A model generated the notes under the pieces. The model worked only from the letters and a program-made list of their open reading frames with translations. It had not been told where the DNA came from and did not search any database. Positions 17,675-62,176 of a DNA stretch of 64,000 nucleotides are shown one piece after another. Position 1 is the first letter of the stretch, and the number at the start of each line of letters is the position of its first letter. The stretch is from an uncultured virus (IMG/VR IMGVR_UViG_3300010342_000399) (lineage: Duplodnaviria > Heunggongvirae > Uroviricota > Caudoviricetes): IMG/VR virus record IMGVR_UViG_3300010342_000399. One strand, given 5' to 3'. The position numbers and the translations under genes were made by a program.

Positions 17675-17711
17675 TTCTTATATAATAGATATATTGTATA
17701 AATATTATAGA

Positions 17712-17744
17712 ATAAAAAAATCGCAATAATTACTTATTGTGATT
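17712..17744 (-). terminator. Probable intrinsic terminator downstream of the nrdJ transcription unit
   Basis: On the minus strand, AATCACAATAA-gtaa-TTATTGCGATT (one mismatch) is followed by a T run. Confidence 0.5.
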
Positions 17745-17817
17745 CAATTTTATAAATGAAGTGCCGTAAAACCGTTCATAAAAATCTACAAAAAATATTT
17801 CGTTTTACAAAAATGTT

Positions 17818-17850
17818 CTTGTTTTTGTAAATAATTATATGTATATTTGC
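17818..17850 (+). promoter_or_regulatory. Bacteroidetes-type housekeeping promoter (-33/-7)
   Basis: TTG (17819-21), then 20 nt, then TATATTTG (17842-49), matching TAnnTTTG. It lies upstream of the 17899 ORF. Confidence 0.65.
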
Positions 17851-17898
17851 ACTGTAAAAATTGACAAATTATAAATAGGTAGTTCACACTTAGAAATC

Positions 17899-18153
17899 AT
17901 GAAATATTTTACTTGGCAAGAAGAAGAAGCGTGGAATGACGGTTATAACGACAGGAAACGTGGAAGAAGACGCGATTATTCTCGCGACTGGTATTCTGAT
18001 GAAGATGTTGACCAAGCATATCTTGACGGTTATCGCCAAGCCGATCGGGAAGAGCGTAGAAGACAAGAATGGGAGGAATTAGAACGATACGAGGAGGAAA
18101 GGGAGGAGCGAAGAAGGTATGTTCAGCAAAATGAACAAGAGGAATGTTTTTAA
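17899..18153 (+). CDS. Small highly charged protein, possibly Rmf/CrpP-like fold with an acidic/basic coiled tail
   Basis: ATG start and its own promoter. Pattern AWxxGYxxxxxG...Y...AYxxGYxxA. Confidence 0.6.
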   Translation: MKYFTWQEEEAWNDGYNDRKRGRRRDYSRDWYSDEDVDQAYLDGYRQADREERRRQEWEELERYEEEREERRRYVQQNEQEECF

Positions 18154-18162
18154 ACAAATGTT

Positions 18163-18372
18163 TTAGATTAATGTTATTATGCCTGTAATTATAAAATATA
18201 TTACCACCACTATAATTAATCCAATAGCCAATCTAATAGCCCCATCTTTAGCTATTTCTTTTACATTTGTAAATGGACTAAATTTATATATTGCACTATT
18301 TTTAACTATAATTGTATAAATATATACGCCAATACAGTATAGTAATAAAAAAATTAAAATATGAATTGCCAT
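18163..18372 (-). CDS. Small two-transmembrane-helix membrane protein
   Basis: 69 aa with two hydrophobic stretches, co-oriented with and downstream of nrdJ. Confidence 0.6.
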   Translation of the reverse strand: MAIHILIFLLLYCIGVYIYTIIVKNSAIYKFSPFTNVKEIAKDGAIRLAIGLIIVVVIYFIITGIITLI

Positions 18373-18437
18373 TTTATTATAATTTAATTAATATAATATA
18401 CTAAAAAAAAATTAAAAAACAAAATATTTATCAACAT

Positions 18438-21038: not shown

Positions 21039-23714
21039 TTATGCATTTTTAGATGCTTGAACTTTTTGTTTTCTCATTTTATATACTTCTGAAGCCCTAT
21101 TAATGCTAGTTGCGTTTTTAGATGTTAAAATGATATTATCGTTTTTTATATCTATAGTTTCTAAATTAATATTTGAAATGCTTTGATTAGTTTGCTCTAA
21201 ATTTTGAAGTTGATTTAATGTTTCTTCTTTTTCTGTTATTGTCTTGCATATAGCAGCTTCTATTTCTAATTGTGTGTCTTTATGTTCTTCTTTTTTAGAT
21301 TTAATTTCATTTCTTATCTTACTTTCTCTTTCTAATCTTTCTCTATAAACATCAGCTGCATGTTGTTTTCTATATAAAGATCTTTCTTCTTCATGCCCTA
21401 ATAACGTATTTTGTGATTCTGTATCAAATTTAAGATATTCATTATCAAATATACAATTCTGAAATACTACTCCATCTTTTCCAATACGGCTCTTAAGTAA
21501 TGTAATATTTGCCAAATTATTTTCTTTTTGAGATAAACTTTTTGCAATTGAAATAACAACATGCCCCACTTGTGCCTTTTTAATTGATCCACCCATTTGA
21601 TCCGTTGTTACTATATCAGAATTTATACTCTCACGATTACCTTGAGTAGCTGTCCATACTGCTATATTAAATTCATCACCCATACCTTCCAGACTTCTCA
21701 TAATTGTGCCCTCACCTTTCCATTCTTCACCTTCAATTGTTCTTTCCATAGAAATACAATCAACGTAATCTAATACCAACATATCAATTTTTACATTTTG
21801 TGATTCTAGTTTTCTTAACCTATTTCTTATATCTGAAATTGAAACTCCAAAAGGTGGTAATTTTAATATTAAAAGACGATTTTTACGATCTTTTGTAATT
21901 TTTTCTACTAATGATATAACATCATCTTGTTTAGACAATTGATCATCACTTGAAATTTCCGTCCATATCGTATAATGTTTTTTGCGAATTTCTTTTATAT
22001 TGTCTTCAAACACTACATGTAAAACTGTAGCACCATAATTATATGCCGAATTAGCAAATTTTGTTAGTATTGTTGTATTATGAGTTAAAACATAATCTCT
22101 AGTAACATAAAGCTGGTCTTCATTTGAAACTTTTATACATAGTGCCTCTTCATCATGTGAGTATTTTATTGATTTAACATATTTTTGCTTAAAATATCTA
22201 GCCTTTGTTCGATAACTATTAATTTTATTTAATAATCTAAATGGTATTATATTATTATCAAATGAAAATGTTAAAATATATGATAATTTTCTGTTTTTCT
22301 GAGTTTTAGTATTTATTTTTATTATTCCTCCTAATGATAAAACTATTTCACGAATATTTTCAGATAAATCTTTTGATATTGTGGAAATTTGAAGAGTTCC
22401 ATTTTTATTTATATGACCATCAATATCCATTAATCCTTGCAATACTGATAATCTAACATCAATTGAATTGTATATATATTCTTTTGGTATAAATTTATTA
22501 TTCGATATTTTATCTAATAAATTATATATTTTTAATTTTTCTATTATGGATTTTAACGATAATTTATGTGTTATTTGAACATCACTTTTATAATGTTGAT
22601 TAAAAGATATTTGTTCGTCTAAATGTTTTATATTTTCAAATATTTCATCATCTTTTATCGATACATTTATGTCTGAACTATATGATAAACACTTATTACT
22701 CAATATTATACCAAGAAGATAAGGATCAATTAGCACCATATGATTTTCAAATTGTATTGGCTTAACAATAGGTAATTTATAATTATATCGGCTGCCCTTC
22801 TTAATATCTGACATCATATCAGATGTGCTAACTATTTTATAACTATAATTTGGATTTTTATCATTAGTATTATTTACTCTCCTATTCAATGTGCTAACAA
22901 CCCAAAGATGATCTAACCCGCAATTAACAAATGTTTTATCAGTGAATTCAACTTTATATATTGGTTTAACTCCTTGTGGATAAACACCAAGAACATATTG
23001 TTTTTTTCCATCAGAACCAATAATTTCATCACCTATTTTTAGCTCACCATTTTTTACCCATCCTTTTGGAGTAAGTACCGGCTCAGATATTGGTAACTCT
23101 TTTCCAATGCCTGTTGGTGCCAATACTATACCTAATTCACCTTTACTAATACCACCTTTAAGAAGAGCATCAAGACCATCAATTCCTGTTGGATATGGTA
23201 TTCTAGCCTCTTTTTGTAAAGATTCTAAAATATTATCAGTAATGTCTTCTATATCTTCTGTTGATATTCCGGTTTGTAATGCCTTAGTTATGATATTTTC
23301 AATCCTATCATATTCTTCAAATGCACCATTACGAATAATTTCTTCTGATTCTTTTAGAGCCTTTTTAACAACCTGTTGTCTACAAAACTTAAGTGATGTA
23401 TCTTTAATATATTTATCATCTTCTAAATAATACTCTTTAATAGATTTTAATGTATCCAGATGAACTTTAAGATTAACACTATCAGTATTTTCTACAAGTA
23501 TTTTTTGCTGTAATGTATCATAATTTGGAATTACTTTATATAAATCATATAATTCCTTAATATTTGTCATGAGATACCTAAAATATGGACCATCAAAATA
23601 TTTACTATCTATGACATCAATAATTGTTATTGCAAATTTTTTATCTTCTATAATGGTTTTTAGTAATCCTTGTTGAAATGAAATACCTAATTGGCCAAAA
23701 TTTTTATCACTCAT
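21039..23714 (-). CDS. dnaB: Replicative helicase (DnaB / T4 gp41-like) precursor containing an intein
   Basis: PTGIDGLD...GGISKGELGIVLAPTGIGK|intein|TT (Walker A), MLVLDYVD (Walker B), WTATQGNR and LLKSRIG. Confidence 0.92.
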   Translation of the reverse strand: MSDKNFGQLGISFQQGLLKTIIEDKKFAITIIDVIDSKYFDGPYFRYLMTNIKELYDLYKVIPNYDTLQQKILVENTDSVNLKVHLDTLKSIKEYYLEDDKYIKDTSLKFCRQQVVKKALKESEEIIRNGAFEEYDRIENIITKALQTGISTEDIEDITDNILESLQKEARIPYPTGIDGLDALLKGGISKGELGIVLAPTGIGKELPISEPVLTPKGWVKNGELKIGDEIIGSDGKKQYVLGVYPQGVKPIYKVEFTDKTFVNCGLDHLWVVSTLNRRVNNTNDKNPNYSYKIVSTSDMMSDIKKGSRYNYKLPIVKPIQFENHMVLIDPYLLGIILSNKCLSYSSDINVSIKDDEIFENIKHLDEQISFNQHYKSDVQITHKLSLKSIIEKLKIYNLLDKISNNKFIPKEYIYNSIDVRLSVLQGLMDIDGHINKNGTLQISTISKDLSENIREIVLSLGGIIKINTKTQKNRKLSYILTFSFDNNIIPFRLLNKINSYRTKARYFKQKYVKSIKYSHDEEALCIKVSNEDQLYVTRDYVLTHNTTILTKFANSAYNYGATVLHVVFEDNIKEIRKKHYTIWTEISSDDQLSKQDDVISLVEKITKDRKNRLLILKLPPFGVSISDIRNRLRKLESQNVKIDMLVLDYVDCISMERTIEGEEWKGEGTIMRSLEGMGDEFNIAVWTATQGNRESINSDIVTTDQMGGSIKKAQVGHVVISIAKSLSQKENNLANITLLKSRIGKDGVVFQNCIFDNEYLKFDTESQNTLLGHEEERSLYRKQHAADVYRERLERESKIRNEIKSKKEEHKDTQLEIEAAICKTITEKEETLNQLQNLEQTNQSISNINLETIDIKNDNIILTSKNATSINRASEVYKMRKQKVQASKNA
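22077..23099 (-). mobile_element. Class 3 intein (341 aa) with a degenerate LAGLIDADG homing endonuclease
   Basis: Inserted between K and T of Walker A. Begins ELPISEPVLTPKGW and ends VLTHN/T. Has the W (DHLW), C (ALCIKV) and T (THN) triplet, and the LQGLMDIDG motif. Confidence 0.9.
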
Positions 23715-27387: not shown

Positions 27388-28035
27388 TTAAAAGTTATAA
27401 TCATTCTCAAAGGCTTTTGGATTAAAAGATTTCATAATTTCATACTTACCATAATTTTCAATATCATTTTTAGTTAATATATATTCATTTTTACCAGAAG
27501 CTCTCATTTCTTCCTGTTTATTATTAAAAAATTCACTTGGATTTTGACTAAATGGATACGAATCTAATGACCTCAATTCTAGTTTTTCTACTGGCGTTTT
27601 TGGCCTAGTTTTTTCAATTTCACTACTTAATTGATCTATTTTTGCTATAACATTATCCATTTCCCCTAATTTTGTTTCTAATTCTCCTAACTTATTAAAA
27701 ACATTATCCATTTTTTCAATTACGTCCACTTCTGCTTTTGGTTGAGTATCAAGTTGTTTTTTAATACTTTTAGTCATATTAACTAAATCTGTGATATCTA
27801 TTTCTTCAGTAGTATCATCTAATTCGGCCGCAGAACCAGTTGCAACTTCAGGAGGAGTTTCAGTATCTCCCGTCATTTTGGGCATATTCATAGATCCACC
27901 TTCTGGAGATAAGTTAGAAATATCTCCTCCGGGTAGCGGTGGAATCGGAGCTTCTTGTTCAATTATATATTTTTCGGCATATCTGTTTATTGCCCAAAAA
28001 CGTTTTACTTCTTCATTAATATTTTTCATTTTCAT
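27388..28035 (-). CDS. Hypothetical protein (coiled coil, Pro-rich region), possibly head/scaffold-associated
   Basis: 215 aa. N-terminal NINEEVKRF motif, acidic Pro-rich linker, heptad region. Confidence 0.7.
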   Translation of the reverse strand: MKMKNINEEVKRFWAINRYAEKYIIEQEAPIPPLPGGDISNLSPEGGSMNMPKMTGDTETPPEVATGSAAELDDTTEEIDITDLVNMTKSIKKQLDTQPKAEVDVIEKMDNVFNKLGELETKLGEMDNVIAKIDQLSSEIEKTRPKTPVEKLELRSLDSYPFSQNPSEFFNNKQEEMRASGKNEYILTKNDIENYGKYEIMKSFNPKAFENDYNF

Positions 28036-28048
28036 AATTAAAAATTTA

Positions 28049-28276
28049 TTAATCTTGTAATAATAATCTACCGTCTTCGGTTATATATTTTTTATTAACT
28101 CTTTCAATCAATCCATCCATTAACCTCAGGATATGACATTCACCTGTTTCAAGGTCACATATAGTTTCTTCCATACCATCATCTGAAATTTTCTTAATAA
28201 CGGTACTCTTTTTTAAAAAGTCTTCTACGGTACTCTTTTTTAAAAAGTCTTCTAATGTTTTACTTATATTATCCAT
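28049..28276 (-). CDS. Hypothetical protein
   Basis: 75-aa ATG ORF with CDLETGEC and an internal 9-aa duplication. Confidence 0.7.
   Translation of the reverse strand: MDNISKTLEDFLKKSTVEDFLKKSTVIKKISDDGMEETICDLETGECHILRLMDGLIERVNKKYITEDGRLLLQD
28200..28253. repeat. Exact 27-bp tandem duplication (in frame, EDFLKKSTV x2)
   Basis: ACGGTACTCTTTTTTAAAAAGTCTTCT occurs twice in tandem. Confidence 0.95.
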
Positions 28277-42252: not shown

Positions 42253-42741
42253 TTAATATAGCTGAATACAACGATCCATTCGTAATGTTACATCAATTGT
42301 CGCTAAATCATCTCTTGAATAATCTAAGTCTCCAAAATTAAGCCCTGTCATAAATGTACCTTGTAAAAGCCATTTTTCAACCACAACGCCAGTCGGATCT
42401 AACATTTCAAGTTCAACATCTTTTTTATATCCAGCGGCATATCCCATTCTTCCTGTAACAGATTCGGCATGTAAACGCATCCATTCCATAAGTGCTTGTG
42501 ATGCTGATGGGCCGATAGGATCTTTAAATTGAACTCTTAATTCTTCCCAAACAAATCGACCAGCAACATATGTTGATGTATTTAAAAATGGAATTTCAGT
42601 AGAACCAATTTTAGCAATTGGCCTCGATGCTGAATAAACATACCATTCATTTATACCTAATGTTGATGGAAATCTTAAAAGAAATCTATTTTTTCGTTTT
42701 GGCTCGTAAGGTACGGGCATTTTCATTAATAAATCTGCCAT
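42253..42741 (-). CDS. Tail tube protein (T4 gp19-like)
   Basis: EPKRKNRF, YVAGRFVWEEL, EW, YKKDVELEMLDPTGVVVEKWLLQG and GDLDYS. Confidence 0.9.
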   Translation of the reverse strand: MADLLMKMPVPYEPKRKNRFLLRFPSTLGINEWYVYSASRPIAKIGSTEIPFLNTSTYVAGRFVWEELRVQFKDPIGPSASQALMEWMRLHAESVTGRMGYAAGYKKDVELEMLDPTGVVVEKWLLQGTFMTGLNFGDLDYSRDDLATIDVTLRMDRCIQLY

Positions 42742-42900
42742 GTCATATTTATATTTAATTCATTTATTACTTTCTTATAAATATATCAAAATTAAAAAAA
42801 TATTTTTTTTTAAATTTTCGTGAAAAATTACCAGTAAATATTGACCCAATAATTAATATTTCAATAAATACTAGTTGTTAAAAAAAAATATTATATTATA

Positions 42901-42930
42901 TTGACTTTTTCATTTTTTTATTATATTTTG
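42901..42930 (+). promoter_or_regulatory. Putative host-type promoter pointing into the repeat arrays
   Basis: TTG (42901-03), 18 nt, then TATATTTTG (42922-30). This is the same downstream element seen upstream of ssb and the glycosyltransferase. Confidence 0.5.
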
Positions 42931-42945
42931 GTACACAGTACCGGC

Positions 42946-43054
42946 CCAGAAATATTGGACCAGAAATATTGGACCAGAAATATTGGACCAGAAATATTGG
43001 ACCAGAAATATTGGACCAGAAATATTGGACCAGAAATATTGGACCAGAAATATT
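42946..43054. repeat. Tandem array of 14-bp CCAGAAATATTGGA (7 perfect copies plus an 11-bp partial)
   Basis: Read directly from the sequence. Confidence 0.97.
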
Positions 43055-43065
43055 ATAAATAAAGC

Positions 43066-43250
43066 AAAATACTAGAATAAAAGATACTAGAATAAAAGAT
43101 AATAGAATAAAAAATACTAGAATAAAAGATACTAGAACAAAAGATAATAGAATAAAAAATACTAGAATAAAAAATACTAGAATAAAAGATACTATAATAA
43201 AAGATAATAGAATAAAAAATACTAGAATAAAAGATACTAGAATAAAAAAT
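43066..43250. repeat. Tandem array of 15-bp AA(A/G)ATA(C/A)TAGAATAA (12 copies) with a 45-bp higher-order pattern
   Basis: Units occur in the order A B C A B' C A A B'' C A B, where A=AAAATACTAGAATAA, B=AAGATACTAGAATAA and C=AAGATAATAGAATAA. Confidence 0.95.
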
Positions 43251-43257
43251 AGTTATA

Positions 43258-43357
43258 TAGAAAAATGTTTTTCTAATCCATTCTCATCGCTTCACAGACA
43301 TTTACCATAAGTGGTTTTACTATGTCTCCACGACTGTTATTCAGGGCATTAACTCCC
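43258..43357 (-). ncRNA. Putative TnpB omegaRNA scaffold remnant
   Basis: GGG...CCC, then CGTGGAGACAT...ACCA-CTTA-TGGT...ATGTCTGTGAAGCG nested stems. These resemble the GTGGAG...GTGAAGC pattern typical of tnpB 3' ends. Confidence 0.5.
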
Positions 43358-43696
43358 AAAGCGGGTAATCCTATCCTTATGCTCAACGAGTATCTTAGCT
43401 ATATTTTCGTCTGACAAAAGTTGAATCATCTTCTTTCTTTCGTCATTAAGCCCGCTACCACATTCTTCCACTACTTTTGACACAATCCACCCATTAGCAG
43501 AACAAAACTCCTGAACTCTTTTCGACTGTGAGATTAAATTCGACCTATTTTCAGATGACGATACTCTCGCATATACAGCTACAACTTCTTTTTTTTGCGG
43601 TGTATCATCTGGAACAATTATAGTACCACTATTGAACATATTCCATGCAGTCCTATATGTAACTCCTAATTATTTTGTGTATTTACTTAATTTCAT
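43349..43696 (-). pseudogene. tnpA: IS607 serine transposase TnpA pseudogene
   Basis: MKLSKYTK*LGVTYRTAWNMF (MerR-like HTH with an in-frame TAA at codon 9), VYARVSS, EECGSGLN and VEHKDRITRFG, followed by a premature stop. The C-terminus is missing. Confidence 0.9.
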
Positions 43697-43700
43697 AATG

Positions 43701-43731
43701 CAAAGATAGTATATTTTTCTATATAAGCAAA
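43701..43731 (-). promoter_or_regulatory. Bacteroidetes-type promoter of IS607 tnpA
   Basis: Minus strand TTTG-N19-TATCTTTG, an exact match to the Bacteroides -33/-7 consensus, just upstream of the tnpA ATG. Confidence 0.75.
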
Positions 43732-43771
43732 TAATTTACTATAAATCTATATTATGTTTTGAATACTGGAC

Positions 43772-43802
43772 AAAAAAAAGGTAGGAATCCCTACCTTTTT
43801 TT
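43772..43802. terminator. Bidirectional intrinsic terminator after the sheath gene
   Basis: A run, GGTAGG-aatc-CCTACC, then a T run. Confidence 0.85.
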
Positions 43803-43816
43803 ATTTTCACTAAGTA

Positions 43817-46666
43817 TTAAATATTCTCAAATGATGCGCCAGTTGGTGTAATTATAAATTCGATATCAATAAATTCTAATGATCTTGTTGGTTTAATATA
43901 AATTTTACCTCTAAGAGTATTTTGATCTATATCTTCTGGATCATTTGATACAACAAGACGGAAGTCATAAAGTCCTCTTTCTTTTTTAATATTTTCAAGT
44001 ATTGGATTAACAAGTCTTGTAAATTCTGCTCGTACTTGTTCATCATTCTGTTCAAAAAGCAATCTCACAGCCACTGCGGCAATAAGTTTTCTTGCTCTTA
44101 ATAATAATCTTCTTACATTGATTCTATCAAGGGCACTTTCTTTTAGTTGGAGTGTTTTATTACCCCAAATAATTGGACCAGTATCAGCAAACGTCGCAAT
44201 TGGATTAATCCTTTCTCTATATAAATCATCTCTTTCATCAAGTGTAAGTTTCTTATATGCCTTAATTGCATTAACAATACCTCTAGAATATCCAGCTACA
44301 GCAAACCAGGGATATGAAACATTATCTGTTAAAGCAATATTTCTTAAAACTTCTCCAGTTGGCGGAATATAAAGTTGTGTTGAATTTTCATTATCTCTAA
44401 TTTGTATCCAGGGCCAATATGTGGCTGAATAGTTTGAATCAAGATTTACGGTATCGAGAAGTCCAATAATATCATCTACTGTAGTTGCATAACCCGGTGC
44501 TGATATTATATACAGTGAATCTGCTCGATCTTTTTCAACCATATCAATAGATTCTTCGGTTAATGATGAATGATCATAAAAATTTATTCCGGGTGTTGCA
44601 AAAATATTAATGTCAACAGCTTCAGCATTAGCGAATGTTTGTATACCTGTTAAATATGCGTAATAATCTGAATTACCAACTGTGTCATTAAAACATCCGC
44701 CATTACTAAAATTATTATCATCATATGTAATTTTACCAAATTTATATTCATCACCAAATGTTCTAACATTTCGGTAAATATCCCATCCATCAAACCCACC
44801 CGCTAGAGCAAGTGTGAATTTACGATAGATTTTATCTTTTAATTTATTGTTATCACCGCCAGTTTGTCCTTCTAAATCATATGGTGTACAATCAAATTCA
44901 AATCCAGTAATTGTTGAGCCAGTTATAGTAGATGCTTGAGATGATAGATGAAATCCTGGTGTTGTTGTTAAAGATGCTAGTTGTTCAGGATCTCCTTTAT
45001 ATTTGAATAAACTTAAATCATATCCTGTTTGATTTGATAATCCTAACATAACTTTTCTAAGTTTATCTCCAGAAAAATCAACAGGTGTTCCATCCCAATT
45101 ATATCTAACTATATCTCCAGCATTATAATATTTTGTCTTATATTTAATTCCGCCTAATACTGCTCCACCATTAAGTGAACCAGCTGTAAATCCTCTAAAT
45201 CCTGCAGGAATTGCATCAACAGGATGATCATTAGACATTTCAAGCATAATATATTTTGATCTAAGTTTATATTGTCCATCTGTAGTACCAATTCTTAATG
45301 CAACGTAGCCAGGTAAATCTGGATTCATTGAACATCTTGAGAATCTTTCAAGTGCAACAATATTATCATCAGTATCATAAAAATCACGTACTAAGATATC
45401 AAATTCAGCTGTTTCAAGATCGATATTTACTATACTTATTTTAATTTGTGTGTTCGATGCATCACCATCAGAAATAGATATAACTCTGAATAAGTCAGCA
45501 ACAATTCCGCCACGTACTTCAGAGACCACATATGGAGATGCTGATGTTTTCCATTCAGTTAAAAAGTCTTTATTAACATTATGTACAACTGGTGTAAGAC
45601 TTAATCCTCTTATTAATCCACGATCTTTTAATGATCGAACCAAATTTGGATATGATTCAAAGACATAAAGTGGATATTGTTCTTCATTTTTATCAAATAC
45701 CCCGGTTCCTAATACCTTAGAAATATATTTAGTTGAAGAATCATTTAAAGAACATATAAATGAATGTGTTTGCCCGCTTTCACCATCTGTTGTAACAGTA
45801 ATTGTAAATTCGCCAAAAGGATTTGTTAAAATTGTTTCACTATTTAATGTTACTCCAGTTTGGGTAGTTATTTGTAAATTTAATTTCGAATGAACGTATG
45901 AACCTCGTGATCTAAGAGCAGCAACTGCAATTTTATCATATGTTTTTTCTGCAACATCATATGTAAATCTAGTTACGTTAAATTCTCCTGAAGATTCGGA
46001 ATATACGAACAAATATGAATAAATTTCATTGTCATTTTCATTATAAAAATTATTATACCAAGCAAAGTTAGTAACATCTCCAATTGGACCGGTAATTTTT
46101 AAAGATGCAGTTAATTCTGATGTGGCAGATGATGGAACAAATCCTATGGTAAACCATTCACCATTAGCATATGATTTTTTGATTATATAATTAGTAACTG
46201 AAAAACCATCTACTGCAGTTTTACCTGATAATTCAGAATAAAAACTACTTTGTGTCATACCAGTTAATGTGGGTATAAAAGAATTATTATCTTCATCAGG
46301 AACTGATGTTGAATCAAAAACAGGTGCACCTAATGTTACAATACCATAAGTTTTATCAGGTCTATATCCTGTTAAACCAAGTATTCTTGTCACAAATAAT
46401 TGATTAGATTCTTGTAAGTATGATTTGGCAAAATAAGGAAGTTCATATGATGGATTTCCATTACCATCTTTTTTCGGTGATGTTGATCCAAAATATGTAC
46501 GAAACTCATTAAAATTTGTTATCAGAACAGGTTCAAATGCAGGACCCTTTAATGTTTCACCTACCATACCTAATGTTGTTACGCCAACACTTTGCGCTAC
46601 GAATGTTAAATCTTTCTCAGATGTGTATACACCCGGAGAAACAAAAACTCTATTTGATGTTGCCAT
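43817..46666 (-). CDS. Contractile tail sheath protein (T4 gp18-like)
   Basis: FVSPGVYTSEKD, GETLKGP, YSATYWPW, PWFAVAGYSRG, INPIATF, WGNKTLQ, LDRINVRRLL and IKPTRSLEFI. Confidence 0.95.
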   Translation of the reverse strand: MATSNRVFVSPGVYTSEKDLTFVAQSVGVTTLGMVGETLKGPAFEPVLITNFNEFRTYFGSTSPKKDGNGNPSYELPYFAKSYLQESNQLFVTRILGLTGYRPDKTYGIVTLGAPVFDSTSVPDEDNNSFIPTLTGMTQSSFYSELSGKTAVDGFSVTNYIIKKSYANGEWFTIGFVPSSATSELTASLKITGPIGDVTNFAWYNNFYNENDNEIYSYLFVYSESSGEFNVTRFTYDVAEKTYDKIAVAALRSRGSYVHSKLNLQITTQTGVTLNSETILTNPFGEFTITVTTDGESGQTHSFICSLNDSSTKYISKVLGTGVFDKNEEQYPLYVFESYPNLVRSLKDRGLIRGLSLTPVVHNVNKDFLTEWKTSASPYVVSEVRGGIVADLFRVISISDGDASNTQIKISIVNIDLETAEFDILVRDFYDTDDNIVALERFSRCSMNPDLPGYVALRIGTTDGQYKLRSKYIMLEMSNDHPVDAIPAGFRGFTAGSLNGGAVLGGIKYKTKYYNAGDIVRYNWDGTPVDFSGDKLRKVMLGLSNQTGYDLSLFKYKGDPEQLASLTTTPGFHLSSQASTITGSTITGFEFDCTPYDLEGQTGGDNNKLKDKIYRKFTLALAGGFDGWDIYRNVRTFGDEYKFGKITYDDNNFSNGGCFNDTVGNSDYYAYLTGIQTFANAEAVDINIFATPGINFYDHSSLTEESIDMVEKDRADSLYIISAPGYATTVDDIIGLLDTVNLDSNYSATYWPWIQIRDNENSTQLYIPPTGEVLRNIALTDNVSYPWFAVAGYSRGIVNAIKAYKKLTLDERDDLYRERINPIATFADTGPIIWGNKTLQLKESALDRINVRRLLLRARKLIAAVAVRLLFEQNDEQVRAEFTRLVNPILENIKKERGLYDFRLVVSNDPEDIDQNTLRGKIYIKPTRSLEFIDIEFIITPTGASFENI

Positions 46667-46797
46667 TGATTATTATTTAGTTAATTTTATTTATTATTGT
46701 TATTATCAATAAATATCTTTATTTTCATCAAAGATTTCCATTATAAAAAATTAAAAGATAATAATTTATCTTTTTTTATCTATATTTATCTTATGAA

Positions 46798-46983
46798 ATG
46801 ACGAGGGATTGTAAAAATATTAAAATCAGTCAAAAACATCATGAAATTTTAAAAACCTATTGCGATAAAACCGGAATGAGAATGTATCGCGTAATAGAAA
46901 AATGGATTGATGAGATTAATAAAGGGAAAAAAGATGATAATATTAAATCAAAGAAAAAAGATATCTATGGTGAAGATACGTAA
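46798..46983 (+). CDS. Small ribbon-helix-helix-like DNA-binding protein
   Basis: KNIKIS (beta strand) followed by HEILKTYCDKTG and MYRVIEKWID (two helices). Divergent from the sheath gene. Confidence 0.6.
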   Translation: MTRDCKNIKISQKHHEILKTYCDKTGMRMYRVIEKWIDEINKGKKDDNIKSKKKDIYGEDT

Positions 46984-48236: not shown

Positions 48237-48752
48237 TTATATTCCTTTAAATTCGTTTTCTTGTACTGGTGAACATATTATTGTTCTATATGATGGTTTG
48301 TATCCAAAATGATGATGTTTATTATCGGCATTAACTTTACCATCATTAATAACATTATAATATCTAATTCTTTTTTCACTATCAGCATATCCAATATAAT
48401 CACCAAATTTTATATCTACTCCCAGATCTTCTAATGTTTTTGTGTAAACAGAAACAATCATATTTCCTGGTTCAAGGTATCTTAATAAGCCAGTTTTATA
48501 TGATTTATTTTCAGCTAGAACAACATGTACAAGAGCATTAATTTCAATTGGCGGTTTAAATTTAATTTCATCTCTTCCAATTTCACCATATATATCATCA
48601 GTATCTGTTATAACCCTATCAACTTGATAAAGAACTATTTTCATATTCAGATCACCATGTAAATATTCCATACCCATTTGTATATGTAAATTATAGTCAT
48701 CTTCAGAAAAGAATTTTGATAATCTTGTTATAGGAAGTCGATTTTCCGCCAT
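48237..48752 (-). CDS. Neck / head-closure protein (gp14-like)
   Basis: DDIYGE...F.PPIEI and LEDLGVDIKFGDYI, plus genomic position. Confidence 0.65.
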   Translation of the reverse strand: MAENRLPITRLSKFFSEDDYNLHIQMGMEYLHGDLNMKIVLYQVDRVITDTDDIYGEIGRDEIKFKPPIEINALVHVVLAENKSYKTGLLRYLEPGNMIVSVYTKTLEDLGVDIKFGDYIGYADSEKRIRYYNVINDGKVNADNKHHHFGYKPSYRTIICSPVQENEFKGI

Positions 48753-48828
48753 TATAATATTTCATTATTATATAATAAATACTTTATATTTCTTTTCTAT
48801 TTATGTATATTATAAAATATTAATAAAC

Positions 48829-50574
48829 ATGGCAATACTCGAAATTGAAGCAAGAAACATTCTATCAGGATATACCGGTGCCAATAATCAGTTGATAGAA
48901 TGGAAAATGAAGCTTTTAACAACAAAAAATTTTAAATTAACTCGAACACAATCAGAATACGTTTTAAAATATTATCAGACAATACCAAAAGTTGCTAGAA
49001 AATATATAAACATTGTTATTTCATTTGGTGAAAGACTTCAAGAAGAAAAATTATTACCAAAACCAGTTGAAAAAATATGGTGTGAAAAACTTTTATGTGA
49101 AACTGATAAAGCATACCATATTTGGGGTAAATTTTTTGATTCCGAGAGGCTTCATGCATTTTGGTTACCTAAAGGGGCAATTTTAAGGCCAGAAAAGAAA
49201 TTGGATTATATTATTGATTATTCCAAATATAATGTTCGGCCACCATTTCCACATCAAAAAGTTGCTATAGAAAAACTTTTAGCAAATGACAGATTTATTT
49301 TAGCTGATGATATGGGATTAATGAAAACAGGTTCATCAATTATTGCATCGTTAGAAAGTGGTGCAAAGAAAATTCTTATTGTGTGCCCCGCATCACTTAA
49401 AAGAAATTGGAAAAGAGAAATAGAAATTTATACTAACAAAAGAGTATTAATAGTTGAAGGAAGAAAATGGGGTTCTACATTTGATTATTATATTATTAAT
49501 TATGATATATTAAAAAATTATCATGTTATTGATAAAAAAAATGAAAGTTTAAATGATAATTTAATTAAAAATGAAAATTTTGACTTAGCAATAATTGATG
49601 AGTCTCATTATCTTAGTAATATTTCTGCAAATAGAACAAAACTCATGAATGATATTCTTAAAACCATACCCAAAGTTTGGTTATTAACTGGTACACCAAT
49701 AACAAATCATCCAATTAATTATTATAATCTATTAAAAATTGTTGATTCACCTGTGGCTCTGAATTGGCAACATTATGTAAAGAGATACTGTAGGGGATAT
49801 AGAATGAAAATTGGTAATAGAACTATATGGAATACTAGTGGAGCATCTAATCTTGATGAGTTAAGAGAGAGGACAAAAGATATATTATTACGAAGATTAA
49901 AAACAGATATACTTGATTTACCAGAAAAAATCGTATCAACAATTCAATTAGAACTTCAAAGCACATATTACAATGAAGAACTAGATGAATTTATGAAAAT
50001 TACCAAAGAACAGAAAGATCATGAAAGTATTACTATAACTATTAATAGACTTATGAAGGTGAGACAAGTAATCGCATATGAAAAAATACCATATACTTGT
50101 GAATTAATAGATAAAGCATTAGAAATGGACAAAAAAGTTATTGTTTTCAGTAATTTTACAATGCCATTAGATACGTTATATGAAAAATATCCAAAAAAAT
50201 CTGTAATTTTTGATGGTAGAATGAACTCAGAGAAAAAAAATCAAGCTGAAATTAAATTTCAGAACGATCCTAAAATAAAAATAATGTTTGCAAATATTGT
50301 AGCCGGCGGATTAGGTTTAAATTTAACCGCTGCCGAAATTGTTATTATGAATGATTTATCTTTTGTACCATCACACCATACCCAAGCTGAAGATCGTGCA
50401 TATAGACATGGACAGATAAAAAATGTTATTGTTTATTATCCATTATTTGAAAATACAATTGAACAAATAGTTTATAATATTCTTAATAGGAAGAAAAATA
50501 ATATTGATCAAGTCATGGGTGATGGTGAATATTCTGAAACTTTTGCAAAAGAACTAATTAATCAATTGATTTAA
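48829..50574 (+). CDS. SNF2-family helicase/translocase (HARP/SMARCAL1-like)
   Basis: PFPHQ, LADDMGLMKT, VCPASL, INYD, DESH, LTGTP, GLGLNLTAA and QAEDRAYRHGQ. Confidence 0.92.
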   Translation: MAILEIEARNILSGYTGANNQLIEWKMKLLTTKNFKLTRTQSEYVLKYYQTIPKVARKYINIVISFGERLQEEKLLPKPVEKIWCEKLLCETDKAYHIWGKFFDSERLHAFWLPKGAILRPEKKLDYIIDYSKYNVRPPFPHQKVAIEKLLANDRFILADDMGLMKTGSSIIASLESGAKKILIVCPASLKRNWKREIEIYTNKRVLIVEGRKWGSTFDYYIINYDILKNYHVIDKKNESLNDNLIKNENFDLAIIDESHYLSNISANRTKLMNDILKTIPKVWLLTGTPITNHPINYYNLLKIVDSPVALNWQHYVKRYCRGYRMKIGNRTIWNTSGASNLDELRERTKDILLRRLKTDILDLPEKIVSTIQLELQSTYYNEELDEFMKITKEQKDHESITITINRLMKVRQVIAYEKIPYTCELIDKALEMDKKVIVFSNFTMPLDTLYEKYPKKSVIFDGRMNSEKKNQAEIKFQNDPKIKIMFANIVAGGLGLNLTAAEIVIMNDLSFVPSHHTQAEDRAYRHGQIKNVIVYYPLFENTIEQIVYNILNRKKNNIDQVMGDGEYSETFAKELINQLI

Positions 50575-59053: not shown

Positions 59054-59543
59054 TGAATTAAAAGATAGAGTTTTTAATATTCGGCCCGATATTTTGGACT
59101 TTTTAAAAAAACAAAAAGAAATTCCTGGATTAAAAAGAAATAAAAATCTTCTTGAAAAAGGACAAGTAACGTATGGCCAATTAAAAAGAATATTACATGA
59201 TTTAAAAAAAATAAATAAATTTAAAGATCTAGATAAATATAATTATTATGGTGGTGATTTAATGAAAAATTGGGGAATAATGATATTAACCAACGAACGA
59301 AATTTAATTCGAGATAGAAAAGAATCAGAAAAAATTGCAAATGATATTGCAGGACTAAATGGTATTAGAAAAAATTCTTTTATTAGGCGACACTCAAAAA
59401 ATACTTTATCACCGAGAATTTCAGTAAATAATATCGTTAAACCAAAATCTAATTCGGAAAAATTTACTAATTCTTCAATGTTTTCAGCTAAATCAATGAA
59501 ATTATTTGAACAAATAAATAGAATTAAAAAATTAATGCTATAA
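59046..59543 (+). CDS. Basic hypothetical protein
   Basis: Overlaps the upstream stop codon and ends LFEQINRIKKLML. Confidence 0.75.
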   Translation: MNSELKDRVFNIRPDILDFLKKQKEIPGLKRNKNLLEKGQVTYGQLKRILHDLKKINKFKDLDKYNYYGGDLMKNWGIMILTNERNLIRDRKESEKIANDIAGLNGIRKNSFIRRHSKNTLSPRISVNNIVKPKSNSEKFTNSSMFSAKSMKLFEQINRIKKLML

Positions 59544-60673
59544 TGCCAACAATTTTAGAAACAATAGCAAATCAACAAAGAACTGAGCATTTATCTCGTA
59601 ATTATTATGATTATGATAATGAATATTCATCAAGTCATAAAAATGCACTTTCAACCGGCGATGAAAAAGGTAAGGGTCAAGTTGGTGATACCGGTCCAGT
59701 TGGTGGTTTAACAGATATTAATACAAGAACTGATAACTTAGGAAGAAATTATTATGATCCAAATAATCCATACGGGCCAACACACTCAAATGCACTTTCA
59801 ACTGGCGATGAAAAAGGTAAGGGTCAAGTTGGTGATACCGGTCCAGTTGGTGGCTTAACTGATATTAATACAAGAAATGATAATATGAGCCGAAACCTTT
59901 ATAAACTACTTGATCAATATAGTTCAATACACAAAAACGCTATATCAGATGGTGATGAAAAAGGTAAAGGACAACTTGGTGATACCGGTCCAGTTGGTGG
60001 GTTAACCGATATTAATACAAGAAATGATAATGTGGCTAGGAACATTTATAGTCCATTTGATCAATATAGTTCAACACACAAAAATGCCATATCAGATGGT
60101 GATGAAAAAGGTAAGGGACAAGTTGGTGATACCGGTCCAGTTGGTGGATTAACCGATATTAATACAAGAAGTGATAATCTAGCTAGAAATCTTTATAATT
60201 TATCTGATCAATATAGTTCGACGCATAAAAATGCCATATCAGATGGTGATGAAAAAGGTAAGGGCCAAGTTGGTGATACCGGTCCAGTTGGTGGGTTAAC
60301 CGATATTAATACAAGAAATGATAATATGGGTAGAAATTATTATAACCCATTTGATCAATATAGTTCGACACATAAAAATGCTATATCAGATGGTGATGAA
60401 AAAGGTAAAGGACAACTTGATGATACCGGTCCAGTTGGTGGATTAACTGATATTAATACTAGAGATGATAATTTAGGTAGAAATTATTATCGCCCATTTA
60501 ATGAATATAGTTCAAGACATAAAAACGCCATATCAGATGGTGATGAAAAAGGTAAAGGACAAATTGATGATACGGGGTCGGTTGGTGGTTTAACTGATAT
60601 TAATACAAGAATTGATAATACAGGTAGAAATAAATTTAAATTAACACACACATATCCAGATTTTGAATATTAA
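59543..60673 (+). CDS. Repeat protein made of seven 49-aa units
   Basis: TAATG translational coupling on both sides. The unit is RNxY...YSSxHKNA(L/I)S(T/D)GDEKGKGQ(V/L)GDTGPVGGLTDINTR. Confidence 0.9.
   Translation: MPTILETIANQQRTEHLSRNYYDYDNEYSSSHKNALSTGDEKGKGQVGDTGPVGGLTDINTRTDNLGRNYYDPNNPYGPTHSNALSTGDEKGKGQVGDTGPVGGLTDINTRNDNMSRNLYKLLDQYSSIHKNAISDGDEKGKGQLGDTGPVGGLTDINTRNDNVARNIYSPFDQYSSTHKNAISDGDEKGKGQVGDTGPVGGLTDINTRSDNLARNLYNLSDQYSSTHKNAISDGDEKGKGQVGDTGPVGGLTDINTRNDNMGRNYYNPFDQYSSTHKNAISDGDEKGKGQLDDTGPVGGLTDINTRDDNLGRNYYRPFNEYSSRHKNAISDGDEKGKGQIDDTGSVGGLTDINTRIDNTGRNKFKLTHTYPDFEY
59597..60630 (+). repeat. Seven tandem 147-bp coding repeats
   Basis: GATGAAAAAGGTAA recurs at 59660, 59807, 59954, 60101, 60248, 60395 and 60542 (period 147). 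Confidence 0.95.
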
Positions 60674-61558: not shown

Positions 61559-62176
61559 ATGGTACTTATAAATAAAAAAATAACTCCACAAGAATTAGCC
61601 GAAAATTTAGTTAATTCCAGAAAAATAATTAACAAACTTGATACTGGTAATTACAAAAAAAGAAATATCAATGAACAATTGATTATTGATAATGATAATA
61701 TTGATATCGATAATATTGATATCGATAATATTGATATCGATAATACTATTAATCAAAATATACCAAAAATTGATACTTCACTAGCTACAATTGATAAAAT
61801 AACTCAATCAAAATTACCAGATGCAATTAAACAGGCAATGATTGAACATCCAATTCCTCAAATATCATTAAATGATTCATTAGATATTAGTATAACTGAA
61901 AGATCGAAAAAAATAATGGAAAAAGAAGGATTAATCTCTCCAACAAAAAGTAAAATAATATATAATCAAAAAAATAGTGGATATTCTACATCATTAAATG
62001 AATCAAAATTACAAAATCTTATTGAAAATGCTGTTCGAAAAGTTCTTGATGAAAAATTAAATCAAATATTATCCGCACAACAATTAAGTAGTATTAATGA
62101 AAATCTTGTTTTAAAAGTCGGAGATTCAATCTTTCAAGGAAAAATTACGGCAGTAAAAAAACACCAAAAACGGTAA
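61559..62176 (+). CDS. Hypothetical protein, probable head-associated
   Basis: SKLPDAIKQAMIEHPI and ENLVLKVGDSIFQGKI. Confidence 0.75.
   Translation: MVLINKKITPQELAENLVNSRKIINKLDTGNYKKRNINEQLIIDNDNIDIDNIDIDNIDIDNTINQNIPKIDTSLATIDKITQSKLPDAIKQAMIEHPIPQISLNDSLDISITERSKKIMEKEGLISPTKSKIIYNQKNSGYSTSLNESKLQNLIENAVRKVLDEKLNQILSAQQLSSINENLVLKVGDSIFQGKITAVKKHQKR
61694..61745 (+). repeat. 15-bp in-frame tandem repeat (DNIDI x3)
   Basis: GATAATATTGATATC x3 plus a partial copy. Confidence 0.9.

What the first reader, a model, noticed from the sequence alone, without database searches (positions are those of the whole stretch)
42890..43260. Promoter firing into two different tandem arrays between the tail tube and sheath genes: candidate replication origin or repeat ncRNA
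Seen: a non-coding block with an AT-rich leader and a promoter-like TTG-N18-TATATTTTG on the strand opposite the tail operon. About 15 nt later come 7.8 perfect 14-bp repeats (each CCA-N7-TGG, containing AATATT), then 12 purine-rich, strand-asymmetric 15-bp repeats. There are no spacers, so this is not CRISPR. Known: T4 origins are a promoter plus a downstream unwinding element that forms a priming R-loop, and other origins use iterons beside an AT-rich tract. Inference: this is either a promoter + iteron + unwinding-element origin, or a repeat RNA acting as a multivalent protein sponge. Sheath and tube genes are normally adjacent, so an organised locus here is unexplained.
Basis: partly seen in the sequence, partly recalled or inferred. 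Interest (0 to 1): 0.75.

Follow-up and report, generated by a model that had tools for sequence, protein, structure and literature searches.

The report
Expanded binding-site arrays before phage tube gene
Two tandem repeat arrays between the tail sheath and tail tube genes of an uncultured giant phage are greatly expanded copies of a short-motif control region that all its relatives carry at the same spot, and they sit beside the wreck of a mobile element; what the region does is still unproven.

Summary
A perfect 14-bp x7.8 array (42946-43054) and a 15-bp x12.2 array (43069-43251) lie between the tube (42253-42741, -) and sheath (43817-46666, -) genes. Five other contigs carry them letter for letter.

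They are not an isolated oddity. In 52 of 56 distinct sheath-tube spacers of related uncultured ~300-kb myoviruses, the same place holds a roughly 150-bp module. It has two clusters of 6-7-bp half-sites (CYAGTA, CTGG, TTGGNCC), direct and inverted, around a pure A+T spacer. A conserved box and an ATATTTAT promoter-like motif follow. About 14 relatives have their own smaller tandem expansions. The window's arrays keep the order and orientation of the motifs in its closest relatives.

As a sigma-70 match it is at chance level. With the arrays, it explains the 1,075-bp gap (usual gap about 325 bp).

Best reading (0.45): a DNA-level array of cooperative protein-binding sites at the tube-operon control region, expanded by slippage. 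An iteron origin like T4 oriE (0.17) is not excluded, but the skew minima lie 5.7 kb away. An antisense RNA is untested.

The parts
42253..42741 (-). Tail tube gene (162 aa), first gene downstream of the module.
   Evidence: phrog_4542 tail tube 1.3e-24; PF06841 gp19 7.3e-05, below its cut-off. It is 78-100% identical to the tube proteins of the relatives.
42770..42787 (-). GATATATTTATAAGAAAG: proximal promoter-like motif of the tube gene.
   Evidence: ATATTTAT or TATTTATA lies within the last 75 nt before the tube ATG in 56 of 56 distinct spacers. It is the most invariant block of the alignment. The same motif precedes the inserted homing-endonuclease genes of L052 and L054. Promoter function is inferred.
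42812..42837 (-). Degenerate proximal copy of the conserved box (TTACTGGTAATTTTTCACGAAAATTT).
   Evidence: Aligns with the proximal box of the two-box relatives L005, L049, L051, L054, L062 and L064.
42862..42874 (-). Single CTAGTATTTATTG motif between the two boxes.
   Evidence: The same CYAGTATTTAT(T/A) motif is seen in many relatives; coordinates.
42900..42931 (-). Distal conserved box (CCAAAATATAATAAAAAAATGAAAAAGTCAAT).
   Evidence: Corresponds to AAAAACTACGAAAAA-N3-TTGACA-N3-TCAAG of the relatives. The exact 15-mer occurs once in each of three 68-80-kb related records.
42930..42942 (.). Small hairpin GGTAC-N3-GTACC between box and array; not seen in relatives.
42946..43054 (.). 14-bp x7.8 perfect array. 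On the operon strand it reads AATATTTCTGGTCC. It is the expanded right arm of the module and ends in CTGGGCCG, as in relatives.
   Evidence: TRF score 218; units. Relatives have ...TGGGCCG/TTGGACCG directly before the box, and L050 has GTATTGGTCC x3 at a 13-bp period.
43069..43251 (.). 15-bp x12.2 array. On the operon strand it reads TATCTTTTATTCTAG. It is the expanded CTAGTAT-type left arm, built from a 45-bp higher-order unit.
   Evidence: TRF score 296; units. CTAGTAT arrays with a 13-16-bp period occur in L007/8, L015, L024, L044, L055, L080 and L081.
43355..43696 (-). Decayed IS607-family tnpA (serine transposase). It has a TAA at codon 9 and an 11-codon deletion. Homology stops at residue 125 of 185. 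There is no tnpB.
   Evidence: NF033518 IS607 transposase 4.8e-30, 104.5 bits against a cut-off of 110; PF00239 1.9e-12; 74% identical to the 185-aa P0003 over residues 1-125.
43701..43731 (-). TTTG-N19-TATCTTTG, a Bacteroidota-type promoter-like site 5 nt before the tnpA ATG.
   Evidence: It is the only intergenic hit among 3 matches to TTTG-N17-21-TAnnTTTG in the window. The consensus is recalled from the literature, not taken from a call.
43756..43769 (-). CCAGTAT: first motif of the left arm, left behind on the sheath side of the IS remnant.
   Evidence: Relatives start the module with (C)CCAGTAT right after the terminator; coordinates.
43773..43802 (.). Two-way intrinsic terminator after the sheath gene (A-run, 13-pair hairpin, T-run).
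   Evidence: Equivalent GC hairpins with a T-run follow the sheath stop in relatives.
43817..46666 (-). Tail sheath gene (949 aa).
   Evidence: phrog_23 5.9e-64; PF04984 and PF17482.

Best explanation
The two arrays are lineage-specific tandem amplifications of the two arms of a conserved non-coding module of about 150 bp. In a whole family of uncultured T4-like myoviruses of about 300 kb, this module sits between the sheath terminator and the tube-gene promoter.

The module has two clusters of 6-7-bp half-sites (CYAGTA/TACTRG, CTGG(A/T), TTGGNCC). They occur both as direct repeats and as palindromes such as CCAGTATACTGG, around 40-60 bp of pure A+T. After them come a conserved box (AAAAACTACGAAAAA-N3-TTGACA-N3-TCAAG) and the motif ATATTTATAAG.

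I read it as a DNA-level array of sites for a sequence-specific, cooperatively binding protein. That protein would act on the control region of the tube operon, as an operator or enhancer, possibly bridging the two arms across the A+T spacer. In this phage, replication slippage or unequal crossing-over multiplied the left-arm unit 12-fold (as 45-bp triplets) and the right-arm unit about 8-fold. An IS607-type element landed inside the left arm and then decayed.

Shown: the arrays, their reproducibility, the family-wide module, its motif enrichment and single occurrence, the recurrent expansions, and the IS remnant.
Inferred: protein binding, the regulatory role, and the slippage mechanism.
For: (1) 65 related loci hold both the sheath end and the tube start (56 distinct spacers). 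55 spacers are 243-441 bp, median 325.
(2) 52 of 56 distinct spacers hold 3 or more half-sites. In 47 distinct short spacers the density is 22 per kb, against 1.1 per kb in 429 kb of flanks.
(3) The same motifs appear as direct repeats and as inverted repeats 87-124 bp apart. Both arms switch type together between lineages: CCAG, CTAG, GGACC. This fits recognition of double-stranded DNA by one protein.
(4) The 15-mer array matches the arrays of L044 and L081 on the opposite strand, and several modules match their own reverse complement. The repeats are therefore used in either orientation, which speaks against a strand-specific RNA.
(5) 16 of 56 distinct spacers pass the array filter. About 14 are CTAG/CCAG-type arrays, mostly with a 13-16-bp period.
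(6) The window keeps the order and orientation of its closest relatives: CCAG, CTAGTA, CTGGTCC, TGGGCCG, box.
(7) The module occurs once. The only 200-bp window with 5 or more half-sites in the 82,994-bp record is the array region. The arrays have no second copy. The exact box occurs once in each of 3 related records.
(8) CTAGTA/TACTAG is depleted elsewhere in the window: 15 seen against about 41 expected.
(9) In the insertion-bearing spacers of L034, L038, L044, L048, L054, L061 and L062/63, the inserted genes lie on the sheath side and the module stays next to the tube gene.
Against: No binding protein has been identified.

The one conserved small DNA-binding candidate nearby (46798-46983) has an invariant N-terminal strand and an invariant AGATA operator. 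It is therefore a poor match for motifs that change between lineages.

In L052 a second homing-endonuclease gene separates the module from the tube promoter by 1.6 kb. Close proximity to the promoter is thus not strictly needed.

A single-copy site with lineage-specific repeats around an A+T tract fits an origin or a segregation site equally well.

The 14-mer array is perfect. It is therefore young, and there is no evidence that selection acts on the expansion itself.

Concerted change of repeats can also come from slippage and gene conversion, without any co-evolving protein.
Confidence: 0.45

Rival explanations
1. Iteron-type replication origin, comparable to T4 oriE. The repeated half-sites bind an initiator, the A+T spacer melts, and the conserved box provides a priming transcript.
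For: The module is a single-copy, conserved element with direct repeats beside a pure A+T tract. Repeat specificity is lineage-specific, as with iteron/initiator pairs. [quoted passage not shown] The phage has T4-type replication genes: gp32-like, UvsX-like, family B polymerase and a DnaB-like helicase.
Against: The cumulative GC and AT skew minima are at 48,986 and 48,811, at the switch of gene orientation, 5.7 kb from the arrays. There is no inflection at 43 kb, although skew here follows transcription direction. No initiator gene lies next to the module. The promoter-like site is at chance level. [quoted passage not shown]
Confidence: 0.17
2. The expansions have no function of their own. 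The module is functional, but the 12-fold and 8-fold arrays are neutral or slightly harmful microsatellite-like slippage products, carried by one clonal, widespread strain.
For: The 14-mer array is 100% perfect and the 15-mer array is built of 45-bp triplets, which are hallmarks of recent slippage or unequal exchange. Only this strain has arrays this large. All 6 contigs of the strain are identical over the region. The spacer already tolerates junk such as the IS remnant and inserted genes.
Against: Expansions recur independently in about 14 of 56 distinct spacers, and always of the motif-bearing units. The strain is found in 17 DNA runs from many studies, so the arrays are at least not costly.
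Confidence: 0.15
3. Non-coding RNA read from the strand opposite the tail operon. The reverse complement of the box (TTG-N18-20-TAnnTTTT) acts as a promoter. The transcript runs through the repeats to the two-way sheath terminator and acts as a structured or sponge RNA.
For: The reverse complement of the box is conserved and resembles the Bacteroidota -33/-7 promoter form with one mismatch (consensus recalled). The sheath terminator is two-way. The + strand RNA of the 14-mer array folds into a long rod (MFE -39.4 kcal/mol, z -5.8, retained in the centroid), while the - strand centroid is open. Contigs from an RNA library touch the arrays.
Against: There is no Rfam match. Array orientation relative to the operon differs between lineages. 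The same motifs occur as direct repeats, which cannot pair. Any partly palindromic tandem repeat folds well. The RNA-library contigs have depth 2-6, no strand information, and the same level as over the sheath gene, so DNA carry-over cannot be excluded.
Confidence: 0.1
4. Centromere-like or packaging-recognition site. Two arms of short box motifs flank a bendable A+T centre, as in P1 parS or pac sites, and are bound by a ParB-like or small-terminase-like protein.
For: The site is single-copy, has two arms with two motif types in both orientations around an A+T centre, and shows lineage-specific specificity. The resemblance to P1 parS and pac is recalled, not tested.
Against: No par or terminase gene was found beside it in the window. 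The contigs show no ends or coverage steps here (contig data only). T4-like headful packaging needs no unique site (established knowledge).
Confidence: 0.06
5. The arrays are amplified TnpA-binding end motifs of the neighbouring IS607-family element.
For: IS607-family ends carry several short directly repeated motifs that bind TnpA cooperatively (passages read in PMC6188088). The arrays begin about 100 bp after the point where tnpA homology stops.
Against: Relatives without any tnpA carry the same motifs at the same place: the tnpA probe matched only L001 and L004, which are copies of the window's own region, among the 82 stored loci (motifs). The 14-mer array runs into the native junction ...CTGGGCCG-box. 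In 7 intact tnpA(-tnpB) loci from other viral contigs, neither the upstream 200 bp nor the TRF rows show similar units. Described IS607 ends have 2-5 motifs of 9 bp at about 10-11-bp spacing.
Confidence: 0.03

Closest known systems
Phage T4 oriE iterons (12-nt evenly spaced direct repeats near repEA/repEB)
   Same: A cluster of short direct repeats in non-coding DNA among late tail or baseplate genes of a T4-type phage. It is also present at the syntenic place in relatives, and its function is unproven (passages of PMC3016281).
   Different: The location differs (sheath-tube spacer), as do the repeat sequences and periods (13-16 bp). The motifs also occur inverted, around an A+T centre. No repE-like gene lies beside the module, and the skew gives no support.
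Operator or centromere arrays bound by small ribbon-helix-helix proteins (omega of pSM19035, ParG, ParR/parC); recalled, not from a call
   Same: Runs of 7-11-bp sub-sites in direct and inverted orientation upstream of promoters, bound cooperatively. The 14-mer can be read as two inverted heptads (CCAGAAA / TATTGGA).
   Different: No cognate protein is shown. The nearby RHH-like gene (46798-46983) has only weak support: RepB-RCR_reg E 0.001, below its cut-off, and fold rows for omega and ParG at E>3. It also seems tied to invariant AGATA repeats in front of the sheath gene.
P1 parS and similar two-arm sites; recalled
   Same: Two motif types on two arms, in both orientations, around an A+T-rich bendable centre. 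Motif changes give lineage specificity.
   Different: No partition genes are seen. The phage looks lytic and T4-like. Nothing was tested beyond the layout.
IS607-family insertion sequences
   Same: The tnpA remnant at 43355-43696 belongs to this family. A relative (L061) carries a TnpB gene in the same spacer (PF07282 5.4e-18).
   Different: Only two thirds of tnpA is left, with a stop and a deletion, and there is no tnpB. The arrays are not IS-end motifs.
CRISPR arrays
   Same: Short direct repeats in non-coding phage DNA.
   Different: The repeats are head to tail with no spacers, and there are no cas genes.

Membership tests
Iteron-type replication origin | Three or more direct repeats of about 12-22 bp | tested here: met
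   14 bp x7.8 and 15 bp x12.2. Relatives have 3-10 copies.
Iteron-type replication origin | Adjacent A+T-rich unwinding tract | tested here: inconclusive
   Relatives have 40-60 bp of pure A+T between the two motif clusters. In the window only 14 bp separate the arrays. The whole genome is 29% G+C, so A+T richness is weak evidence.
Iteron-type replication origin | Cognate initiator gene beside the repeats, or shown to bind them | tested here: not met
   The neighbours are sheath, tube and an IS remnant. Binding cannot be tested here.
Iteron-type replication origin | Replication starts here (skew inflection or depth peak) | tested here: not met
   Cumulative GC and AT skew minima are at 48,986 and 48,811. 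Depth profiles are not available because only contigs were held.
T4 oriF/oriG-type R-loop origin | Active promoter directed into an unwinding element, with a persistent RNA-DNA hybrid | tested here: inconclusive
   The sigma-70-like match is at chance level: 34 found against 34.2 +/- 5.6. The sequence is conserved as a box. Transcripts cannot be tested with the data held.
CRISPR array | Repeats separated by unique spacers of similar length | tested here: not met
   The copies are head to tail.
IS607-family insertion sequence | Serine-recombinase transposase with an N-terminal DNA-binding domain | tested here: met
   NF033518 4.8e-30, 104.5 bits, just under the 110-bit cut-off because the gene is truncated. 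The remnant aligns from residue 1 of 185-aa homologues.
IS607-family insertion sequence | Intact tnpA (about 185 aa), usually followed by tnpB | tested here: not met
   Stops at codons 9, 116, 120 and 135 of the read-through, an 11-codon deletion, homology ending at residue 125, and no tnpB.
IS607-family insertion sequence | Ends with GG and several 9-bp TnpA-binding motifs | tested here: inconclusive
   The ends could not be defined. Intact relatives show no units like the arrays.
Operator or centromere array of a ribbon-helix-helix protein | Contiguous short sub-sites in direct and inverted orientation | tested here: met
Operator or centromere array of a ribbon-helix-helix protein | Cognate RHH protein that binds them | tested here: inconclusive
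   A candidate lies at 46798-46983. Pfam RepB-RCR_reg gives E 0.001, below its cut-off. The model has a strand-helix-helix order at mean pLDDT 65. No fold match reaches E<=0.001. Binding cannot be tested here.
Known RNA family (Rfam 15) | Match at gathering score | tested here: not met
   0 matches in the window and in 5 loci.

The most novel reading that the evidence does not exclude
The sheath-tube module is a single-copy, genome-level cis site of a widespread family of giant phages: a replication origin or a segregation/positioning site. Its repeat specificity has switched several times (CCAG, CTAG, GGNCC) together with an unknown cognate protein. Its copy number can balloon, as here, perhaps to out-compete co-infecting relatives for that protein.
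Probability: 0.2. Interest if true: 0.7.

Novelty: new variant of a known kind. Interest (0 to 1): 0.45.

Why it matters
Almost nothing is known about cis-acting DNA signals in uncultured giant phages. This work defines one. It is conserved, occurs once per 70-83 kb examined, is built from short repeats that change between lineages, and is prone to tandem expansion.

The carrier phage is common in digesters, sludge and wastewater (17 DNA runs).

The module gives a concrete, testable handle on either late-gene control or replication and segregation in this family. It also offers a natural series of copy-number and specificity variants for finding the protein that reads it.

Finally, it shows that the sheath-tube spacer is a preferred landing site for selfish genes: IS607 tnpA, TnpB, and Hef-like endonucleases.

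Tried and rejected
CRISPR: rejected, because there are no spacers.

Coding repeat: rejected. ORF 42901-43062 is only the repeat read as a peptide.

Assembly artefact: rejected, because 6 contigs agree.

General promoter module: rejected. The motifs and the box are confined to this spacer. The three outside clusters found lie in coding DNA and look like chance.

Invertible promoter switch (9-10-bp inverted repeats about 100 bp apart, beside a serine recombinase): considered. No close pair of relatives shows the segment flipped. The minus-strand matches are explained by the palindromic build of the module. The recombinase is an IS607 remnant found only in this strain.

Restriction-site avoidance as the cause of local enrichment: only mild. 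CTAG is 114 seen against 164 expected outside the gap.

Known phages: no DNA match. The best sheath match is 32% identical, Microcystis phage Mel-JY01, whose sheath-tube gap is only 94 bp.

Sequencing runs: the Logan contigs break at the arrays. The 44-nt 14-mer piece has depth 111.8 against about 13.4 in X2, and 69.7 against about 14.7 in X5. My hand calculation expects 5.6-fold for 109 bp. This hints at different copy numbers, but it is too noisy to use.

RNA-library contigs (X18, X19): depth 2-6 and no strand information, so they are no evidence for or against transcription.

Fold search for the small protein: no match at E<=0.001.

Similarity of the box to the sheath promoter (TACGGAAA 27 nt before TATTTAT): seen in 10 of 44 distinct sheath upstream regions, too partial to build on.

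Literature: 0 papers hold 'tail sheath' + 'tail tube' + intergenic + 'tandem repeats' + phage. The motif strings gave only unrelated primer hits. A search on jumbo phage and iterons found nothing relevant in its listing.

Earlier notes of this scan: none on this genome or on these words.
Full report
WHAT IS THERE

Reading 42600-43500 and running Tandem Repeats Finder confirm two adjoining arrays. The first is 42946-43054: 14 bp, 7.8 copies, 100% matches (CCAGAAATATTGGA). The second is 43069-43251: 15 bp, 12.2 copies, 89% matches (ATACTAGAATAAAAG). Unit by unit, the 14-mers are all identical. Of the twelve 15-mers, nine carry CTAG and three carry AATAG, and they form a 45-bp higher-order pattern. 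That pattern points to growth by unequal exchange of triplets.

The flanking genes on the - strand are the tail tube (42253-42741) and the tail sheath (43817-46666). The window is 29% G+C. It encodes T4-type replication proteins, baseplate proteins and several giant proteins. It equals part of an 82,994-bp viral record that CheckV rates as 27% complete, which implies a genome of roughly 300 kb.

Between the arrays and the sheath gene lies a decayed IS607-family transposase gene. The 96-aa ORF 43349-43639 matches Resolvase (PF00239) and a PHROG 'transposase'. Read through with X at the stops, it matches NCBIfam IS607 transposase at 4.8e-30, with 104.5 bits against a cut-off of 110.

Full-length homologues have about 185 aa. 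The best one, P0003, aligns at 74% identity over residues 1-125 only. The remnant has a TAA at codon 9 and an 11-codon deletion, and nothing is recognisable after 'RFG' at about 43355. No tnpB follows. A TTTG-N19-TATCTTTG site lies 5 nt before its ATG. It is the only intergenic match of that pattern in the window. The pattern is the Bacteroidota promoter form as I recall it.

Arrays (306 bp) plus remnant explain why the gap is 1,075 bp.

RELATIVES

A scan of viral contigs with the sheath protein gave 80 loci at 57-100% identity. Of these, 65 hold both the sheath end and the tube start, giving 56 distinct spacers. In 55 loci the spacer is 243-441 bp, median 325, counted with the stop codon.

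Ten spacers are longer. One is L004, the window's own strain. The others hold inserted genes:
- a TnpB (L061, PF07282 5.4e-18);
- Hef-like homing endonucleases with a Mom-like domain (L044, L052, L054, and a fragment in L062/63);
- YkuD-type genes (L034, L038, L048).

Earlier notes of this scan describe the same Hef/Mom genes in related phages.

The nearest cultured phage, Microcystis phage Mel-JY01 (32% sheath identity), has only a 94-bp gap. The module is therefore a trait of this uncultured family.

THE MODULE

On the operon strand the spacers share one plan:
1. the sheath stop and a GC hairpin with a T-run;
2. a first cluster, (C)CCAGTAT / CTAGTAT / CTGGAA / CTAGAA, often as palindromes such as CCAGTATACTGG;
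3. 40-60 bp of pure A+T;
4. a second cluster, for example TTCTGGAACTGGTTATACTGGG or TATTGGTCC repeats;
5. a conserved box, AAAAACTACGAAAAA-N3-TTGACA-N3-TCAAG;
6. about 45 nt further on, ATATATTTATAAG, followed by the tube ATG.

Counts:
- 52 of 56 distinct spacers hold 3 or more half-sites, and 56 of 56 hold ATATTTAT or TATTTATA within the last 75 nt.
- Half-site density is 22 per kb in 47 distinct short spacers, against 1.1 per kb in 429 kb of flanks.
- The outermost motifs form inverted repeats 87-124 bp apart. The motif type changes in both arms together: CCCAGTATA/TATACTGGG, AACTAGTAT/ATACTAGTT, GGACCAAT/ATTGGTCC.
- 16 of 56 distinct spacers pass a filter for arrays of 2.8 or more copies. 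About 14 of these are CTAG/CCAG-type, mostly with a 13-16-bp period. Examples are L055 (14 bp x5.4), L044 (15 bp x4.3) and L042/43 (CTAGAA x8-10).

HOW THE WINDOW FITS THE PLAN

On the operon strand the window reads as follows:
- terminator (43802-43773);
- CCAGTAT (43769);
- IS remnant;
- 15-mer array (TATCTTTTATTCTAG);
- 14-mer array (AATATTTCTGGTCC), ending in CTGGGCCG;
- small hairpin;
- distal box (42931-42900);
- CTAGTATTTATTG;
- degenerate proximal box;
- GATATATTTATAAGAAAG;
- tube gene.

Its closest two-box relatives (L049, L051, L061 and others) have the same order and orientation in single or double copies: CCAG, CTAGTA, CTGGTCC, TGGGCCG, box. The arrays are therefore expansions of the native arms. 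The IS landed inside the left arm.

As a sigma-70 match it is 1 of 34 sites, where shuffles give 34.2 +/- 5.6.

SINGLE OCCURRENCE AND REPRODUCIBILITY

In the 82,994-bp record, the only 200-bp window with 5 or more half-sites is the array region. BLAST finds no second copy of the arrays. The exact 15-mer of the box occurs once in each of three related records of 68-80 kb, and looser matches are at control level.

Four IMG/VR contigs and one metagenome contig carry an identical 1,484-bp stretch. The strain occurs in 17 DNA runs from digesters, sludge, wastewater and 'soil'.

Skew: the cumulative GC and AT minima lie at 48,986 and 48,811, at the divergent gene switch (48752/48829), and not at the arrays. 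Skew here tracks gene orientation, so this weakens the origin reading but does not kill it.

RNA: there is no Rfam match. The + strand RNA of the 14-mer array folds into a rod (z -5.8), whereas the - strand centroid is open. Any partly palindromic repeat would do the same. Contigs from RNA libraries touch the region at depth 2-6 without strand information, which is uninformative. The 15-mer array matches the arrays of L044 and L081 on the opposite strand, and several modules match their own reverse complement. Function therefore seems independent of strand, which favours recognition of duplex DNA.

IS-end origin of the arrays: IS607 ends carry two to five 9-bp motifs (passages of PMC6188088). 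However, relatives without tnpA have the motifs, and 7 intact tnpA loci elsewhere show no such units.

MOST LIKELY MECHANISM

I take the module to be a DNA-level array of sites for a cooperatively binding, sequence-specific protein acting at the tube-operon control region. Slippage amplified both arms in this strain (confidence 0.45).

The binder is unknown. A conserved 52-61-aa protein encoded divergently from the sheath gene (46798-46983) looks like a ribbon-helix-helix protein, but only weakly:
- Pfam RepB-RCR_reg gives E 0.001, below its cut-off.
- The model shows a strand-helix-helix order at pLDDT 65.
- The top fold rows, omega and ParG, are not significant.

Its N-terminal strand is invariant across 21 aligned homologues, and it sits beside invariant AGATA repeats. 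It more likely serves the sheath promoter than the variable motifs.

One case argues against a strict promoter-proximal role. In L052 a second endonuclease gene separates the module from the tube promoter.

COMPARISON AND NOVELTY

The nearest described thing is the set of T4 oriE iterons. These are short direct repeats among late genes, conserved in relatives, with a role never established (PMC3016281, passages read). The layout also recalls RHH operator/centromere arrays and P1 parS; both comparisons are recalled and untested. I found no paper describing repeats in a sheath-tube spacer.

I class the finding as a new variant of a known kind (repeat arrays that bind proteins), of moderate interest. 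Its value is a well-defined, family-wide, variable cis element in abundant uncultured giant phages.

Noticed in passing
window 46798-46983 (+) and 46690-46800: A conserved 52-61-aa gene is encoded divergently from the sheath gene in all relatives examined. Its N-terminal KN(V/I)KIS strand is invariant and it has two helices, so it is ribbon-helix-helix-like, on weak evidence. Three direct copies and one inverted copy of AGATA lie at roughly 11-bp spacing between it and the sheath promoter motif.
   Followed up: partly
loci L034, L038, L044, L048, L052, L054, L061, L062/63 (sheath-tube spacer): The spacer is a landing site for selfish or accessory genes: TnpB (L061), Hef-like endonucleases with a Mom-like domain (L044, L052 x2, L054, fragment in L062/63), and YkuD-type L,D-transpeptidase-like genes (L034, L038, L048). 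All sit on the sheath side of the module, except the second endonuclease gene of L052.
   Followed up: partly
window 48752-48829: The cumulative GC and AT skew minima of the window (48,986 and 48,811) fall at this 76-bp divergent intergenic region, beside an SNF2-type helicase gene. By skew alone this is a better origin candidate than the arrays.
   Followed up: no
window 21039-23714 (-): The DnaB-like helicase gene carries an intein-like insert (Hom_end, LAGLIDADG_3, weak Hint).
   Followed up: no
window 59660-60631 (+): A 147-bp x6.6 coding tandem repeat (86% matches) lies inside the 376-aa ORF 59543-60673.
   Followed up: no
window 28200-28254: A perfect 27-bp x2 repeat lies in the 267-bp non-coding gap upstream of ORF 27388-28035.
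   Followed up: no
window 61684-61745: A 15-bp x4.1 repeat (TATTGATATCGATAA, 95% matches) lies inside ORF 61559-62176.
   Followed up: no
window 17675-18437: A 763-bp stretch has no ORF of 90 aa or more. It lies between the gp25-like baseplate gene and the ribonucleotide reductase gene. No Rfam match.
   Followed up: no
L092 5207-5564: Another viral contig with an intact IS607-type tnpA-tnpB pair has a 15-bp x23.9 array (GGTTGCCTGTGTTCC) about 1.1 kb downstream of tnpB, running to the end of the stored locus.
   Followed up: no
relatives, just after the sheath terminator (e.g. L016, L022, L033, L012): A second conserved hairpin, GTTCC-ACNN-GGAAC plus a T-run, follows the first terminator. It shows a compensatory variant, GTTTC...GAAAC, in L012.
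   Followed up: no
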